Shown: one piece after another, positions 1-12,663 of the stretch
Layout: every line of letters begins with the position of its first letter
How positions within the stretch are numbered: the first letter of the stretch is position 1
Program-made: the position numbers and the translations under genes
UHGV virus genome: UHGV-1698770
Direction: 5' to 3' (one strand)
Length of the DNA: 18,856 bases
DNA from: a virus
The notes under the pieces: generated by a model
Database searches by the model: none
Told to the model about the DNA's origin: nothing
Seen by the model: the letters and a program-made list of their open reading frames with translations, nothing else

Positions 1-58
1 TCGAACCTGCCGATACCATGCTAATGAGACATGTGAGACGCCCTTTCTCTATACCCGC
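1..58 (-). tRNA. partial tRNA, 3' part cut by window edge; probable anticodon CAU (Met or Ile2 type)
   Basis: Minus strand reads GCGGGTA-TA-GAGA..TCTC (D arm) - CATGT/CTCATTA/GCATG (anticodon arm) - ..GCAGGTTCGA (T arm start) and runs off the window. Position 37 is U, which is unusual, so isotype is uncertain. Confidence 0.45.
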
Positions 59-150
59 AATTCTTAATGACCAGACCAAATCTCTTCTTTGTCCGATTTA
101 CCTTCAGATGAATAAGATTAAGTTTGCTGTAATTGGTCTTCTGTCAAAAC

Positions 151-228
151 TGGCGTTCCAGAAGGGATTTGAACCCTCAGATGTCCACTTTGAAAGAGTG
201 GTGACTTTACCATTTTGTCTACTGGAAC
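151..228 (-). tRNA. tRNA-Glu (anticodon UUC), CCA encoded
   Basis: Minus strand: acceptor GTTCCAG/CTGGAAC, anticodon stem CCACT/AGTGG with loop CTTTCAA (U33, UUC, A37), T arm GAGGG-TTCAAAT-CCCTT, discriminator G then CCA. Confidence 0.8.
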
Positions 229-235
229 ATTAATT

Positions 236-312
236 TGGTCTCTGTTGGAGGACTTGAACCTCCGGCCTTACCGCCCCAAACGGAACGCTCTACCAAGCTG
301 AGCTAAACAGAG
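236..312 (-). tRNA. tRNA-Pro (anticodon UGG), CCA encoded
   Basis: Minus strand: acceptor CTCTGTT/AACAGAG, D arm GCTC-AGCTTGGTA-GAGC, anticodon loop TTTGGGG (UGG), T arm GGAGG-TTCAAGT-CCTCC, discriminator A then CCA. Lies 7 nt upstream of tRNA-Glu. Confidence 0.8.
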
Positions 313-338
313 ATAAACTTTTCAAACTCTATGTAACC

Positions 339-368
339 ACTTTAACATTATTTTTTAGTGGTTGTCAA
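339..368 (-). promoter_or_regulatory. candidate promoter TTGACA-N18-TAAAGT upstream of tRNA-Pro
   Basis: Minus strand TTGACA (368..363), 18-nt spacer, TAAAGT (344..339). Overlaps a 7-bp inverted repeat AACCACT/AGTGGTT (335-361). Confidence 0.35.
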
Positions 369-430
369 GAACTTTTTTAAAATATTTTTCAGTATCTTAG
401 AAAAGCTCTCATTCCGTTTCTATGTAGAAC

Positions 431-459
431 ATATTAAAGGGTATTAAACACATTGTCAA
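431..459 (-). promoter_or_regulatory. sigma70-like promoter TTGACA-N17-TAATAT upstream of the tRNA cluster
   Basis: Minus strand TTGACA (459..454), 17-nt spacer, TAATAT (436..431). The -35 sits in the loop of an 8-bp inverted repeat AAGGGTAT/ATACCCTT (437-466) just downstream of the vWA gene stop. Confidence 0.5.
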
Positions 460-477
460 TACCCTTTTTAAAACTTT

Positions 478-1893
478 TTACCAGATATAACGGTCAATCA
501 TTACTGCTTTGAGCATTACGCTGATTGGGTCAAACTTCTCACCACCAAGCAGAGCTTTTAAAGTGGCTGGAGAGAAACCAGATACCATTGCTACACCGTT
601 ATCCTTAACAGACACTTCGCAAGTACCATTACGGTTTGCTAAGTACCAGAATACCAGTTGTGGCATTTCGTATCCAGCTTTTTTGTACTTACTCTGAATT
701 GCTTCAAAGTTTGTACGACCGTTAGCTCCATCAACCTGATTGAACTCCATATCGGAGAAGATGATAAGCTTACTTGGCATATCTTTCTGAGTCAAGTTGT
801 TTCTTTTGCCTGTCTCAAGAATGCGGTCAAAAGCTGCTTGTAAGTTAGTTGAGCCATATTCAACGTGTCGCATCACCTGACGATGACGGTTTCGTAAATC
901 ACCACTCAGTTCGATGAAGTGAGGGTTTGTTGAATAAACCATCAACTCATTCTTAAAGCAACCTGTATTGCGTTCTGCTACATACAAGGCAAGTGATACA
1001 CCAATATCCAGAGCAGTAATGGAGCCAAAATTCACCCAAGACATTGAACTTGATACATCAGACATACACAAGATGTTTTCACCTTCTGCCATCCAGTTTG
1101 GTAGTGCTTTCCACTGCTCATTAGCAACATCTGCATTACCATGCTTGACAGATTTAATCACATCGTATGGGTAAACAGCGCCAGCATTAATCTTAGCCTC
1201 ACCTTTTGATAAGGACTCAATGTAAGCTTTGTAACGTTCTCCATCCTTACGGTTAAACAGTTTTTGGTAACGTGCAGCAGCAAGTGAAGGAACCTTACTG
1301 TAGTCAATCTTGCCAAACTCATTAGCAGAGATTTTTTGCTCAACTGTATCAGATAGTGCAGATAACAGTGTGCGGTAATCTTTCTCGCTCAAGTTGGCAA
1401 ACTTGCAGAAACGTTTTACAAACTGCTTATGACGTGGTTTGACTCGTGGTAACCACTTAGCCGCCAAACCTGCTGTTGCAGGGTCTAGTAATGCTGCTTC
1501 TAAGTGTTTAAAGGCATCTGTCTCGAAACGAGTACCTACGAAGATTTTGAAGTCATCAAAACGACCAAGTTCTGCAATCTTATCCATAATGCGAAGAACC
1601 TGTGTAGGCTCTAAAACTTTATCTTCAATTGCTTGAAGCAAAACAGTTCTGAAGGCTTTACGCTCACCCATACCTTCTCGTATATCTCGCATATGCAGTA
1701 AAATACGAACTGCAACATCAACATCCTCACGCAAAGCTTTGTAGAACAAGTCTGGTAAGATTTCTACATTGCTACGGCTTGAACCAGCAGCTTTGTAAAA
1801 GTCTACAAGAGCAGACATTGATGAAGTATGGTTTACAGCACCATTTTCAGTTCGACCTGCATGAAGGTGCGCATGTTTAAATAATTCGCTCAT
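478..1893 (-). CDS. vWA domain-containing protein with large N-terminal helical region (Ro60/TROVE-like or DUF2828-like architecture, unverified)
   Basis: 471-aa ORF, ATG at 1893 with GAGAG-rich RBS. C-terminal third has vWA/MIDAS-type blocks (DVSSSM, YGSTNLQAAF, KLIIFSDMEF). N-terminal ~260 aa has no hydrophobic segment. Confidence 0.85.
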   Translation of the reverse strand: MSELFKHAHLHAGRTENGAVNHTSSMSALVDFYKAAGSSRSNVEILPDLFYKALREDVDVAVRILLHMRDIREGMGERKAFRTVLLQAIEDKVLEPTQVLRIMDKIAELGRFDDFKIFVGTRFETDAFKHLEAALLDPATAGLAAKWLPRVKPRHKQFVKRFCKFANLSEKDYRTLLSALSDTVEQKISANEFGKIDYSKVPSLAAARYQKLFNRKDGERYKAYIESLSKGEAKINAGAVYPYDVIKSVKHGNADVANEQWKALPNWMAEGENILCMSDVSSSMSWVNFGSITALDIGVSLALYVAERNTGCFKNELMVYSTNPHFIELSGDLRNRHRQVMRHVEYGSTNLQAAFDRILETGKRNNLTQKDMPSKLIIFSDMEFNQVDGANGRTNFEAIQSKYKKAGYEMPQLVFWYLANRNGTCEVSVKDNGVAMVSGFSPATLKALLGGEKFDPISVMLKAVMIDRYIW

Positions 1894-1932: not shown

Positions 1933-1962
1933 ACTTTAGAGCAACTTTGTAGAGTCTGTCAA
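1933..1962 (-). promoter_or_regulatory. candidate promoter TTGACA-N18-TAAAGT upstream of the vWA gene
   Basis: Minus strand TTGACA (1962..1957), 18-nt spacer, TAAAGT (1938..1933). Embedded in an 8-bp inverted repeat GACAGACT/AGTCTGTC (1928-1960). Confidence 0.4.
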
Positions 1963-1974
1963 CACCTTTTAAAA

Positions 1975-2346
1975 TTATTTTTTGAGGGTTGCAACAGCAG
2001 AGAACGTTGGTTTGTTATCTGTCTGAGACTGACCACCGTTATCAGGGGTCTTCTTAGTGTCTGCTGCAATTGCTTTCATCTCACCTGCTGAGTGAGTCAT
2101 GATGGTTTTACCAGCTTCCATCATCGACTTCAGGTTTACATCGTCAGTCGTCAAACCGAACTCTGCAAGCTTAGCAGCGTCCCTTGTAACAATCGCTTCA
2201 AACAACTTTGCAGCAAACTCAGCAGAATTATCAATGGTCAGTTGAGCTTTTACGAGAGAGCTTTTGTTACGTGAGCCTTTTGGTCTTCCAGATGGGTTTC
2301 CAGACTGGCCTTTTTTAAACTGGCCTTTGTTTGTTCTGTTTTTCAT
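1975..2346 (-). CDS. hypothetical protein with N-terminal GNPSGRPKG motif
   Basis: 123-aa ORF, ATG at 2346 with AAGAGG RBS 7 nt upstream. Lys/Ala-rich with basic N-terminus; motif resembles DUF5681-type phage proteins (from memory, unverified). Confidence 0.7.
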   Translation of the reverse strand: MKNRTNKGQFKKGQSGNPSGRPKGSRNKSSLVKAQLTIDNSAEFAAKLFEAIVTRDAAKLAEFGLTTDDVNLKSMMEAGKTIMTHSAGEMKAIAADTKKTPDNGGQSQTDNKPTFSAVATLKK

Positions 2347-10995: not shown

Positions 10996-11006
10996 AATAT
11001 CTTAAG

Positions 11007-11037
11007 AGCCTCCTTAATTGGGGGCTTTTTAATTTTT
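11007..11037 (+). terminator. rho-independent terminator closing the plus-strand block
   Basis: AGCCTCC-ttaatt-GGGGGCT stem (one G-U pair) followed by TTTTTAATTTTT. Confidence 0.75.
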
Positions 11038-11640
11038 ATAAAATTTTATCGGTTGTCCCAACCTCTGGGTCACCATTATATGTGAACAAAATATCTACCC
11101 TTCTTAACAACCTTCTTAATCTTACTCTCTATATATAGTTATATAGTACTATATAGTATCTTAGTAACTATCTAGTGGTCTTAATAGCCCTCTGTATAGC
11201 CCTTCTAAATAGCCATCTAAACACTCTTCTAACAAGCCTTCTAAACAACCTATACAATCATCTTAACCATCTCTCTACACACTCTTAGAAGCTCCTATAC
11301 ACCTCTTAATCTCTATGTAAGCTATGATACCCTCTATAGGTGTTCACTAGGTATTACTAAGCCTCTATATAGACTGTTTTAACAAACTTAACAGGAATAT
11401 CTTCACAGACCTTATCTCACAAGGTCTAACACGGTACTAACAAGGTATCTTATAAGCCTGTTTATGCCTGTATTTTTAAAAGACTGTCTAGGTAATTATT
11501 CAGAATTTTAAAATTTTTATAAAATAGGACTATCAAGTCATTTTTTAGGGTCTTTGAAGGAACTGAAAAATATCTGTCTAGGATGTATATCTGCTTGGTA
11601 GCCCTTAACAGCTCCCTTACAAGTACTTTGCAAAATTTTA

Positions 11641-11880
11641 AAATATCCTTAACAATCTCTTAACAGTTCTCACATTTTCTTAACAACTCTTCAAAGGTCT
11701 TAACAGATTCTTAACAGAACTAACAAGGCTGTAACAAGTTCTTAACAGTCGATACATGGTCTTTACAGAGTCTTAACAGATGACTAACAAGAGCTAACAA
11801 GTTAATTTTTAAGAGTTATTTTGTTAAGATAATTAACAAGTTCCTAACAAGTATTTAATCTTTTTAACAAGCTATTAACA
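11641..11880. repeat. array of at least 15 TAACA(A/G)-core motifs (TCTTAACAG / CTAACAAG) phased at 10-11 bp
   Basis: Core starts at 11650, 11661, 11681, 11701, 11712, 11721, 11732, 11743, 11774, 11785, 11795, 11834, 11845, 11865, 11876; successive differences are 9-11 bp or multiples. No ORF in any frame. Confidence 0.7.
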
Positions 11881-12062
11881 TGGTCACTATCTCTTTCTTA
11901 TCGTTCCCTTTCCCTCTTAGTGATTCTTTAAACATACCTCTTAAAAGCTCTCTATAGCTCTTTATAAGCTCTTTTAAGCCTCTTCCTAGTATCTATCCCC
12001 CAACTGTACAAACACCTCTTTATAGAGCTTTACAGGAGCTTTTAAGGCTATGTCAAAGACTC

Positions 12063-12170
12063 TTACAAGGCTTTTACGTGGTCTTAACAGAGATTTAACA
12101 AGGGGCTAACAAGTCTCTAACAAGCATAACTATGTAGGGATTGTTAAGAAATTGTTAAGAAAATGTTAAG
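12063..12170. repeat. second cluster of the same motif: direct copies then three inverted copies (TGTTAAG)
   Basis: Direct copies at 12085, 12096, 12107, 12118 (11-bp spacing); inverted copies starting 12142, 12153, 12164 (11-bp spacing); orientation switches around 12125-12140. Confidence 0.6.
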
Positions 12171-12181
12171 GGGGCTAGCAT

Positions 12182-12233
12182 TTACGTAACTTTATAGCCT
12201 TTTTTACGTAACTTTGAAGTAACTTTATAGCCC
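12182..12233. repeat. direct repeat TTACGTAACTTTATAGCC x2, second copy with internal GTAACTTT reduplication
   Basis: Copies at 12182-12199 and 12205-12233. Confidence 0.5.
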
Positions 12234-12598
12234 CTATAACATGCTTTTTAGTGACTAGCAAGGGGGTTGTTTAACCATTCACAAGGTACTAACCAGCCTA
12301 TAAGCTTACACCCTTATAAGATTCTTTTAAGCCTCTATAAAGCCCTGTAAAGAGCTTTTTAAGATAGGTTAATGCAATCCCTTAAGTTAGGTTGATAAGG
12401 CTGTTATAGAGCTTTATAGAGCGTTTAAATGGGCCATCCCCTTTCTGGGGTTATTGGCTTTTATTTAAGTTGATTTGATAAGAGGTTATAGAGTAGACTA
12501 TAGAGTTATTGTTTTTAAGGTATGAGATAGGTTCTATCGAATCAGTGGGAAGATTCTGGAAAGGTGAGGGAAAGGGATTGTATAAGGATTCAATAGAC

Positions 12599-12653
12599 GT
12601 AAAAAAGCCCCTTTAAATAGGGGCTGTTGAGGTATCTGGGGCTATTTAGCCCC
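12599..12653 (-). terminator. tandem hairpins forming the intrinsic terminator of the minus-strand block
   Basis: On the minus strand: GGGGCT-aaat-AGCCCC (12638-12653), then AGCCCCT-atttaa-AGGGGCT (12606-12625) followed by TTTTTT. Confidence 0.75.
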
Positions 12654-12663
12654 GCTGCGTCGA

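What the first reader, a model, noticed from the sequence alone, without database searches (positions are those of the whole stretch)
1..1893. vWA protein with Ro60-like architecture encoded next to a tRNA cluster: possible phage RNP module
The 471-aa protein has a C-terminal vWA domain with MIDAS-type motifs (DVSSSM, GSTN, IIFSDMEF) preceded by about 260 aa of helical sequence. That layout is shared by Ro60/Rsr (TROVE plus vWA) and by DUF2828-type phage proteins. Bacterial Ro60 orthologues bind Y RNAs that contain tRNA-like modules and are usually encoded next to the protein gene. Here the gene lies immediately upstream of, and on the same strand as, a tRNA cluster with its own promoters and an unexplained 93-nt spacer. 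Co-localisation is seen in the sequence; the Ro60 relationship and any RNA partner are inference.
Basis: inference. Interest (0 to 1): 0.65.

Follow-up and report, generated by a model that had tools for sequence, protein, structure and literature searches.

The report
Phage Ro60-like protein and Y-like RNA
A Felix O1-type phage gene encodes a ring-shaped RNA-binding protein of the Ro60 kind, and the odd spacer among the neighbouring tRNA genes belongs to a family of small RNAs, not found described in the papers searched, that sits beside such genes in many phages, so the two probably form an RNA-protein particle that helps the phage resist bacterial defence.

Summary

The RNA partner is the new part. 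The "unexplained spacer" (window 69-144, minus) is one of four paralogous elements in the tRNA cluster. They share a covarying closing stem and a CAGCAA motif. A fourth, 135-nt copy about 0.5 kb beyond the window's left edge is a permuted tRNA-like RNA with the V-T-acceptor-D arm order of bacterial YrlA Y RNAs. Covariance models find the same RNAs, always on the gene's strand, in distant DUF2828 phages. Hits are about 20-fold enriched within 250 nt of the gene and absent from tRNA-rich control phages. Rfam's YrlA model misses them at its gathering score.

Binding is inferred, not shown. Verdict: a divergent Ro60/Y-RNA module.

The parts
478..1893 (-). CDS of 471 aa: Ro60-like ring protein of the DUF2828 + DUF7788 family (PHROG 850). 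It is the orthologue of Bas63 gp130.
   Evidence: ORF and translation. Pfam DUF7788 E 1.8e-43 and DUF2828 E 3.2e-30. phrog_850 E 3e-184. 458/471 residues identical to bas63_0130. Fold matches to Ro60.
1084..1893 (-). N-terminal helical region, residues 1 to about 270. It is TROVE-like by structure only.
529..1074 (-). C-terminal vWA domain (residues 274-455) with an intact MIDAS motif (D279-x-S281-x-S283, T349, D381).
   Evidence: Pfam DUF7788 covers residues 274-455. The MIDAS residues are invariant in 60 homologues. 14 of 60 family members weakly hit vWA_Ro60 PF25045.
1933..1962 (-). sigma70-like promoter site upstream of the CDS (TTGACA-18-TAAAGT), embedded in an inverted repeat.
   Evidence: Consensus scan; not tested for function.
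431..459 (-). sigma70-like promoter site (TTGACA-17-TAATAT) inside a 12-bp-stem inverted repeat, between the CDS and tRNA-Pro.
   Evidence: Invariant across Felixouna- and Moogleviruses.
339..368 (-). Second sigma70-like promoter site (TTGACA-18-TAAAGT), also spanning an inverted repeat.
236..312 (-). tRNA-Pro (UGG).
   Evidence: ARAGORN; Rfam tRNA 57.7 bits.
151..228 (-). tRNA-Glu (UUC).
   Evidence: ARAGORN; Rfam tRNA 59.3 bits.
69..144 (-). The 5' arm AGACCAA is at 139-133, the single-stranded motif CAGCAA at 129-124, then a small variable hairpin, then the 3' arm UUGGUCU at 79-73 followed by G.
   Evidence: One of 4 paralogues per genome, whose arms covary between copies. R1 scores it 31.9 bits. 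R2, built without any Felix-like sequence, scores it 27.2 bits, E 1.7e-4, and it is the only significant hit in the window. It fits the family signature seen in 46 non-seed short forms. Two independent G-U-preserving substitutions in relatives fit pairing in the minus-strand RNA only.
1..59 (-). 5' part of tRNA-Met (CAU), cut by the window edge. Its RNase P site would define the 3' end of the spacer RNA (inference).
   Evidence: Annotated tRNA-Met at the same place in NC_041979 and MZ501086.

Best explanation
The gene encodes a divergent Ro60-type protein: a helical-repeat ring closed by a MIDAS-bearing vWA domain. It belongs to the phage family DUF2828/DUF7788. Its cognate RNAs are encoded on the same strand among the tRNA genes and are co-transcribed with them.

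There are three short RNAs, one of which is the window's Glu-Met spacer at 69-144. There is also one 135-nt RNA about 0.5 kb beyond the window's left edge and about 1 kb downstream of the gene. Its interior is a circularly permuted tRNA mimic with arms in the order V, T, acceptor-like hairpin, D, which is the architecture of bacterial YrlA.

All copies share a closing stem (A-U, G-C, then five freely covarying pairs). The stem is followed on the 5' side by (U)U-N-CAGCAA and on the 3' side by a conserved G. This is the likely protein-recognition module, playing the role that the GGUCCGA / GNCGAA stem plays for Ro60 and Rsr.

Processing of the flanking tRNAs by RNase P and the 3' trimming enzymes would release the RNAs. 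The resulting particle would act on RNA during infection, for example by gating or tethering a host exoribonuclease such as PNPase, or by shielding RNA ends. In the 97%-identical Bas63 orthologue the protein protects the phage against the Ppl (ATPase + PHP) defence system.

Shown here: the fold, the RNA family with its covariation, and its tight genomic linkage to the gene. Taken from the literature: the anti-Ppl phenotype. Inferred: protein-RNA binding, the processing route, and the molecular target.
For: Protein:
- Full-length structural matches to Ro60.
- Invariant MIDAS residues.
- Distant homologues are annotated 'Ro-like RNA binding protein' or 'RNA-binding protein'.

RNA in Felixounaviruses:
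- Four paralogous elements per genome. The arms covary between copies, AGACCAA/UUGGUCU against AGACCGU/ACGGUCU.
- The long copy folds into V, T, acceptor-like and D hairpins inside the closing stem.
- T arm GAAGG-UUCGAUU-CCUUC and D arm GUGU-AAUGGUA-GCAC are invariant, while the acceptor-like stem has three different sequences, all paired: 3 of 7 pairs change on both sides and 100% of cells are paired. This is the pattern Chen et al. 2014 describe for YrlA.

RNA in other phages:
- Model R1, built from Felix-like copies, finds full-length matches on the gene's strand in Bacillus phage FADO (67 bits), mycobacteriophage Krypton555 (100 nt after its Ro-like gene), Cronobacter S13 and many IMG/VR phages.
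- On 21 such matches, 93% of cells pair against 38-50% for slid controls. 32 of 34 pairs change on both sides, and the closing stem is 99.3% paired.
- Model R2, built without any Felix-like sequence, recovers the Felix long copy at 119 bits (E 1e-24) and the window element as the window's only significant hit.

Linkage and controls:
- Hit density is 0.26-0.43 per kb within 250 nt of the gene against about 0.015-0.02 per kb at 2-7 kb. 33 of 85 diverse loci have a hit within 500 nt. tRNA density is flat over the same range.
- Controls: 75 kb of phiEa21-4, a relative with the same tRNA cluster but no such gene, and a 40-kb T5-like tRNA region. They give only tandem-tRNA junction artefacts of 31.3 bits or less and no short form.
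- Rfam YrlA hits three of the same sites below its gathering score (38.9, 38.3 and 28.7 bits; E 4.5e-5 to 0.04).

Literature:
- Bas63 gp130 is Ro60-like and counters Ppl.
- Thermus phage Ro60 binds two adjacent Y-like RNAs and host PNPase.
- Listeria phage CKA15 has hugely abundant non-coding transcripts within 2 kb upstream of its homologue.
Against: - No binding data exist for any DUF2828 protein.
- gp130 alone, expressed from a plasmid or from the T7 genome, restores T7 plaques on Ppl cells. A phage-encoded RNA is therefore not needed for that phenotype, unless a host RNA substitutes.
- No Pfam TROVE match at E up to 10. Rfam YrlA does not reach its gathering score anywhere, and gives nothing at E up to 10 on the Felix copies.
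- The Ro60-binding motif GNCGAA is absent and CAGCAA stands in its place.
- The window's own element is short, scores modestly (27-32 bits), and is no more stable than shuffled sequence (z -0.7).
- About 32 of 85 loci show no hit in the DNA held.
- R2's seeds were picked by R1, and the covariation counts were made on model-fitted alignments, which lean towards the structure.
- Control DNA totals only 115 kb.
Confidence: 0.72

Rival explanations
1. The protein is a stand-alone anti-defence factor. It inhibits Ppl, or another host protein, directly through its MIDAS/vWA face. The spacer RNAs are unrelated passengers of the tRNA cluster.
For: gp130 expressed alone rescues T7, which has no tRNA cluster, on Ppl cells. 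The MIDAS motif, normally a protein-ligand site, is invariant. tRNA density around homologues is flat, so tRNA adjacency in itself means little. Homologues are found in virions or annotated as structural.
Against: This does not explain the roughly 20-fold enrichment of the RNA elements within 250 nt of DUF2828 genes across unrelated phages, always on the same strand. It does not explain their absence together with the gene in phiEa21-4. It also does not explain why the whole Ro60 ring, not only the vWA domain, is conserved.
Confidence: 0.15
2. The elements act in cis, as processing, stability or autoregulatory signals for the tRNA precursor or the DUF2828 mRNA, rather than as free partner RNAs.
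For: The elements lie in transcribed spacers or directly flank the gene. Some sit 13-100 nt upstream of the start codon. tRNA-like structures are natural RNase P / RNase Z substrates (established knowledge; Chen 2014 reports RNase P cleavage of M. smegmatis YrlA).
Against: They occur upstream or downstream of the gene, in one to five copies, and up to several kb away among tRNAs. This does not fit a UTR element. The conserved single-stranded CAGCAA next to a covarying stem looks like a protein-binding module. The architecture equals that of YrlA, a free RNA.
Confidence: 0.08
3. The covariance-model hits are artefacts of tRNA clusters: junctions of tandem tRNAs, or decayed tRNA genes.
For: Tandem tRNAs do score, up to 31.3 bits in the control loci. 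Chen et al. warned of the same artefact.
Against: The Felix long copy and the FADO copies lie in gaps that hold no tRNA. The acceptor-like hairpin is a closed 5-7-bp stem that covaries. Short forms have no tRNA part at all, yet keep the stem and motif, and many lie in loci with no tRNA within 10 kb. Long hits score 41-119 bits, above the control ceiling.
Confidence: 0.05

Closest known systems
Bas63 (Escherichia phage JohannRWettstein, MZ501086) gp130, from the PhageMaP preprint (PMC11482910)
   Same: It is the orthologue: 458 of 471 residues identical, with the same synteny (DUF5681 gene, this gene, then tRNA-Pro/Glu/Met...). It is described there as structurally Ro60-like and as lying directly upstream of tRNAs. 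Its deletion gives tiny plaques on Ppl cells, and it is transferable to T7.
   Different: That work only guessed that 'some tRNA genes are possibly Y RNAs'. Here the candidates are not the annotated tRNAs. They are four unannotated spacer elements, two of which lie under the probably spurious ORFs bas63_0137/0138.
Bacterial Rsr (Ro60) with YrlA/YrlB Y RNAs (S. Typhimurium, M. smegmatis; Chen et al. 2014, PMC4201824; Rfam RF02553)
   Same: A ring protein with a vWA domain. The partner RNAs are encoded within a few kb on the same strand. There is one long RNA with a permuted tRNA-like domain (V, T, acceptor-like stem-loop, D) and shorter RNAs that lack it. The T and D arms are nearly invariant while the acceptor-like stem covaries.
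   Different: The protein is not detectable as TROVE by sequence. The RNAs fall below the YrlA gathering score. The conserved motif is CAGCAA after the stem rather than GNCGAA(N)G. The RNAs are embedded in a phage tRNA polycistron. No rtcB/rtcA operon is present here, although a Listeria phage homologue lies 1.3 kb from an RtcB gene.
Thermus phage phiLo Ro60 with Yrl1/Yrl2 (PMC12135203; PDB 9L5Y)
   Different: phiLo Ro60 is deposited as a TROVE-domain protein. Its RNAs were picked by the CGAA motif, and that paper describes no tRNA-like domain. Only 14-17% of structurally aligned residues are identical.
'Ro-like RNA binding protein' of mycobacteriophages with 70-76-kb genomes, and PHROG 850 'RNA-binding protein'
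   Same: Same protein family: 33% identity over the full length and phrog_850 at E 3e-184. Krypton555 carries a YrlA-like RNA 100 nt after the gene (R1 37 bits, Rfam YrlA 38.3 bits).
   Different: The annotation is by similarity only. No RNA partner is annotated in these records.

Membership tests
DUF2828 / DUF7788 phage protein family (PHROG 850) | Pfam PF11443 and PF25043 matches above their gathering scores, and a full-length PHROG 850 match. | tested here: met
   DUF7788 148.8 bits (cut-off 27.1) and DUF2828 105.8 bits (cut-off 29). phrog_850 covers residues 1-471, E 3e-184. All 60 aligned homologues carry both domains.
Ro60 / Rsr (TROVE + vWA) proteins | TROVE domain recognisable by sequence profile (Pfam PF05731). 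| tested here: not met
   No TROVE hit at E up to 1 for the protein, nor at E up to 10 for any of 60 homologues. A profile search of PDB sequences finds no Ro60.
Ro60 / Rsr (TROVE + vWA) proteins | Fold: a helical-repeat region plus a C-terminal vWA domain, superposable on solved Ro60 structures over the full length. | tested here: met
Ro60 / Rsr (TROVE + vWA) proteins | vWA domain with a MIDAS motif (DxSxS ... T ... D). | tested here: met
   D279, S281, S283, T349 and D381 are invariant in 60 homologues. There are weak vWA_Ro60 PF25045 hits in 14 of 60.
Ro60 / Rsr (TROVE + vWA) proteins | Cognate Y RNA(s) encoded nearby on the same strand. | tested here: met
   A short element lies 334 nt after the stop codon (window 69-144). 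The long YrlA-like element lies 976 nt downstream, outside the window. The same linkage is seen in 33 of 85 diverse loci within 500 nt.
Ro60 / Rsr (TROVE + vWA) proteins | Binding of Y RNA on the outer surface and of RNA 3' ends in the central cavity. | not testable with these tools
   This needs EMSA, CLIP or a solved structure.
YrlA Y RNA-like family (Rfam RF02553) | A score at or above Rfam's gathering threshold (69 bits). | tested here: not met
   The only YrlA hit in the window is a 14.3-bit match (E 5.3) to the T arm of tRNA-Pro. There is nothing on the Felix long copy at E up to 10. Related phage copies reach 38.9, 38.3 and 28.7 bits.
YrlA Y RNA-like family (Rfam RF02553) | A permuted tRNA-like domain in the order V, T stem-loop, acceptor-like stem-loop, D stem-loop, enclosed by a terminal stem. 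| tested here: met
   This is met by the long copy (L001 5368-5502) and by long hits in other phages. It is NOT met by the window's own element, which has only the stem, the motif and a small hairpin, and so resembles the shorter YrlB.
YrlA Y RNA-like family (Rfam RF02553) | The GNCGAA(N0-1)G motif near the 5' end, the presumed Rsr contact. | tested here: not met
   The conserved motif is (U)UNCAGCAA directly after the 5' arm. No CGAA occurs in the window element.
Anti-Ppl counter-defence protein (Bas63 gp130) | Orthology to the tested protein, and protection of the phage on Ppl-expressing cells. | tested here: inconclusive
   Orthology is met (97% identity, same synteny). The phenotype is known only from the preprint and cannot be tested here.

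The most novel reading that the evidence does not exclude
DUF2828 proteins and the CAGCAA-stem RNAs form a widespread, phage-specific class of Ro60/Y-RNA particles. Their tRNA-mimic RNAs serve in counter-defence, for instance as decoys or adaptors that divert or block host RNA- or tRNA-directed immunity or host exoribonucleases. The protein may be delivered with the virion. If so, the RNA family would be the missing partner of an experimentally validated anti-defence gene.
Probability: 0.25. Interest if true: 0.85.

Novelty: new variant of a known kind. Interest (0 to 1): 0.64.

Why it matters
Ro60/Y-RNA particles are studied as RNA quality-control machines and as autoantigens. In phages they have been characterised once, in Thermus phiLo, and guessed at elsewhere.

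This gene's orthologue already has a defence-related phenotype (anti-Ppl) but no mechanism. Concrete, conserved candidate partner RNAs make that mechanism directly testable, because the recognisable binding module (stem + CAGCAA) can be mutated.

The result also suggests that hundreds of phage genomes carry unannotated small RNA genes. Some of these are mis-annotated as tiny ORFs or as over-long tRNAs. It further suggests that Rfam's YrlA model misses a large phage branch.

Tried and rejected
- **Rfam scans.** These were run at gathering and at permissive thresholds on the window, on 1-520 and on the full tRNA cluster. No Y RNA appeared. The only YrlA hit in the window is a 14-bit match to the T arm of tRNA-Pro.
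- **Region 313-477.** It holds two promoter-like sites, each inside an inverted repeat, and a hairpin. Its fold is more stable than shuffles (z -4.9 for 330-477). No Y-like element was found: R2's best hit there is 14.6 bits, E 0.17. It reads as promoter/leader sequence. A CGAA in relatives reads CGGAA in the window.
- **Thermodynamic stability of the spacer.** It is not significant (z -0.7), so folding energy alone would have dismissed it.
- **Sequence searches of PDB.** Neither the protein nor its profile found anything.
- **tRNA adjacency as evidence.** In 75 IMG/VR loci all 312 tRNAs are co-oriented with the gene. However, density is flat (about 0.25 per kb) from 0 to 10 kb, and 40 loci have none. 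Adjacency in itself was therefore rejected as a specific signal.
- **Conserved protein neighbours.** There is no common partner. DnaJ appears in 11 of 145 neighbouring ORFs, Band_7 in 5, RNA ligases in 5 and a CCA-adding-type enzyme in 2.
- **Spacer as a split promoter.** TTGACA and TAAGAAT lie about 70 nt apart. This was rejected because the paralogues lack the -35 hexamer.
- **Literature.** No paper was found that describes these RNAs. The supplement of Chen 2014 that lists its 22 phages is not held. No data on bas63_0137/0138 appear in the PhageMaP text.
Full report
**What the window is.** The first 2.4 kb are 97.6% identical to many Felix O1-like phages of E. coli and Salmonella (genus Felixounavirus). 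The ORF of the finding runs 478..1893 on the minus strand. Downstream on that strand lie tRNA-Pro (236-312), tRNA-Glu (151-228) and the first 59 nt of a tRNA-Met that the window edge cuts. In complete genomes 26 tRNA genes follow. The motifs DVSSSM, GSTN and IIFSDMEF are present, and their MIDAS residues (D279, S281, S283, T349, D381) are invariant in 60 homologues that share as little as 40% identity. The Glu-Met spacer is 91-92 nt. Two sigma70-like sites lie between the gene and tRNA-Pro; they are consensus matches only.

**The protein.** Pfam assigns DUF2828 plus DUF7788. PHROGs assigns family 850, 'RNA-binding protein'. No TROVE match appears for it or for any of 60 homologues, although 14 of them weakly match the Ro60-type vWA model. 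Sequence and profile searches of PDB find nothing.

**What was already known.** tblastn finds the family in 710 phage records, including Vibrio, Aeromonas, Campylobacter, Listeria, Staphylococcus, Bacillus and Mycobacterium phages. In some of these it is annotated 'Ro-like RNA binding protein'.

The window's protein is 458/471 identical to bas63_0130 of phage Bas63, in the same synteny. The PhageMaP preprint reports four things about this gp130:
- It resembles Ro60 structurally.
- It lies directly upstream of tRNAs, 'some of which are possibly Y RNAs'.
- Its deletion gives tiny plaques on cells carrying the Ppl defence gene.
- gp130 alone rescues T7 on such cells.

The protein has a counter-defence phenotype that does not need the phage's own tRNA region. 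A Thermus phage Ro60 has been shown to bind two adjacent Y-like RNAs and host PNPase. A Listeria phage study suspected Y RNAs near its homologue.

**Is tRNA adjacency meaningful?** Not in itself. The related Erwinia phage phiEa21-4 has the same tRNA cluster and the same upstream DUF5681 gene but no vWA gene between them. In 75 diverse IMG/VR loci all 312 tRNAs within 10 kb are co-oriented with the gene. However, tRNA density is flat from 0 to 10 kb, and 40 loci have none. Neighbouring proteins show no constant partner.

**The spacer.** Rfam finds no Y RNA in 59-150 or 313-477, and the spacer is no more stable than shuffled sequence. Reading the whole tRNA cluster of a complete relative showed that four spacers share one design. 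The design is a 5' arm AGACC(AA/GU), then (U)UACAGCAA, a variable interior, then the matching 3' arm (UU/AC)GGUCU followed by G. The arms covary between the copies. All four copies are present in the 24 Felixouna- and Mooglevirus loci whose held DNA spans the whole region. The window's spacer (69-144, minus strand) is copy 1.

Two substitutions in relatives (AGGCCAA, AGACCGA) keep pairing only as G-U in the minus-strand RNA. Copy 4 is 135 nt and lies 498-632 nt beyond the window's left edge, 976 nt downstream of the gene. It folds into four hairpins inside the closing stem: a V hairpin, a canonical T arm (GAAGG-UUCGAUU-CCUUC), a 7-bp acceptor-like hairpin, and a canonical D arm (GUGU-AAUGGUA-GCAC). 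That order is the defining architecture of bacterial YrlA Y RNAs. Across variants the T and D arms are invariant, while the acceptor-like stem has three different sequences, all fully paired.

**Is it a family linked to the protein?** A covariance model (R1) was built from the Felix-like long copies. It finds full-length matches, all on the strand of the DUF2828 gene, in the following:
- Bacillus phage FADO, with two copies inside the tRNA cluster just upstream of the gene.
- Mycobacteriophage Krypton555, 100 nt after its Ro-like gene.
- Cronobacter phage S13, under two over-long 'tRNA' annotations.
- Yersinia phage P778.
- Many uncultured phages.

On 21 matches, 93% of cells pair against 38-50% when partners are slid. 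32 of 34 pairs change on both sides, and the closing stem is 99.3% paired. This alignment is model-fitted, so it leans towards the structure.

A second model (R2) was built only from non-Felix matches. It recovers the Felix long copy as its best hit (119 bits, E 1e-24). With filters off, it finds window 69-144 as the only significant hit in the window (E 1.7e-4, next best 0.17).

Forty-six short forms that were in no seed share one signature: AAG, six variable bases, (A/U)U(A/U)CAGCAA, an A-rich stretch, the six complementary bases, CU, then G. The five variable stem pairs show no mismatch, apart from two G-U wobbles.

In 85 diverse loci, hit density within 250 nt of the gene is 0.26 per kb (long forms) and 0.43 per kb (short forms), against about 0.015-0.02 per kb at 2-7 kb. 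33 loci have a hit within 500 nt and 53 have one somewhere in the DNA held. Tandem arrays of short forms abut the gene in Listeria, Staphylococcus and Aeromonas phages.

**Controls.** Two controls were used: 75 kb of phiEa21-4, which has no homologue by tblastn, and a 40-kb T5-like region with about 25 tRNAs. They give only tandem-tRNA junction artefacts of 31.3 bits or less and no short form. Chen et al. warned of the same artefact.

Independently, Rfam's own YrlA model hits three of the same sites below its gathering score (38.9, 38.3 and 28.7 bits). Chen et al. searched only genomes annotated with a TROVE protein. This would explain why the DUF2828 branch was not covered. I found no paper describing these RNAs in the library searched.

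**Mechanism.** The best-supported reading is a divergent Ro60/Y-RNA module. The ring protein recognises the stem-plus-CAGCAA module of RNAs that are released from the tRNA precursor by tRNA-processing enzymes. One RNA carries a tRNA mimic as its effector part. By analogy with Rsr/YrlA/PNPase and phiLo Ro60, the particle would tether or gate a host exoribonuclease, or shield RNA. The documented outcome for the orthologue is escape from Ppl.

Binding, processing and the target are all inferred. The main counter-evidence is that gp130 alone suffices against Ppl in T7. The RNAs may therefore serve another function of the particle, or host RNAs may substitute.

**Verdict.** The protein part is already known. 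The RNA part is a new variant of a known kind and gives concrete, testable partners for a validated anti-defence gene.

Noticed in passing
window 10996-12663: A 1.7-kb stretch without any ORF of 50 aa or more lies between plus-strand and minus-strand gene blocks. It is packed with short iterated CTTAACA(R)/CTAACAAG repeats, about 10-11 or 31 nt apart, in both orientations, plus AT-rich palindromes. It looks like an iteron array or replication origin, or a regulator-binding region. The same gap is unannotated in Bas63 (70,493-72,154).
   Followed up: partly
window 1933-1962, 431-467 and 339-370 (minus strand): All three sigma70-like promoter sites near the gene have their -35 hexamer TTGACA and their -10 enclosed by an inverted repeat of 7-12 bp, for example AAAGGGTATTGACA...TAATACCCTTT. 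This recurring design suggests operator sites or hairpin-forming promoters. The sequences are invariant across Felixouna- and Moogleviruses.
   Followed up: partly
L039 20749-21023 (Bas63 MZ501086 82,748-83,022): The annotated hypothetical ORFs bas63_0137 and bas63_0138 lie on the opposite strand. bas63_0137 lies over Y-like elements 3 and 4 and is probably spurious; bas63_0138 starts just past element 4, in the same unannotated gap.
   Followed up: partly
L009 4896-5138 (Cronobacter phage S13) and L120 17393-17527 (T5-like phage JLBYU43): GenBank annotates 'tRNAs' of 113-135 nt here. In S13 they coincide with two tandem YrlA-like hits (R2 54.7 and 49.5 bits) 0.5 kb after the DUF2828 gene. The 135-nt 'tRNA-Phe(aaa)' of the T5-like phage was not hit by R1 or R2 and remains unexplained.
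   Followed up: partly
L015 5815-7026 (Listeria phage LP-083-2): An RtcB-type RNA ligase gene lies 1.3 kb downstream of the DUF2828 gene on the same strand, which recalls the rsr-yrlBA-rtcBA operon of Salmonella. In the IMG/VR loci, RNA ligases (5), CCA-adding-type enzymes (2) and, oddly, full-length DnaJ (11) occur among the 145 neighbouring ORFs.
   Followed up: partly
literature on Listeria phage CKA15 (PMC12282133); GenBank hits H96 and H99: The DUF2828 homologue CKA15_055 was detected in purified virions (57% sequence coverage). Jumbo-phage homologues are annotated as 'structural protein'. The protein may therefore be packaged and injected. In the same phage, small 'ORFs' 059-061 upstream make up to 67% of phage transcripts. 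Whether they coincide with the R2 hits could not be checked.
   Followed up: no
window 1975-2346 (minus strand): The gene just upstream encodes a 123-aa DUF5681 protein. It stays next to the tRNA cluster in phiEa21-4, where the Ro60-like gene is missing. The Ro60-like gene and the spacer RNAs therefore appear to have been gained or lost as one unit within the Ounavirinae.
   Followed up: partly
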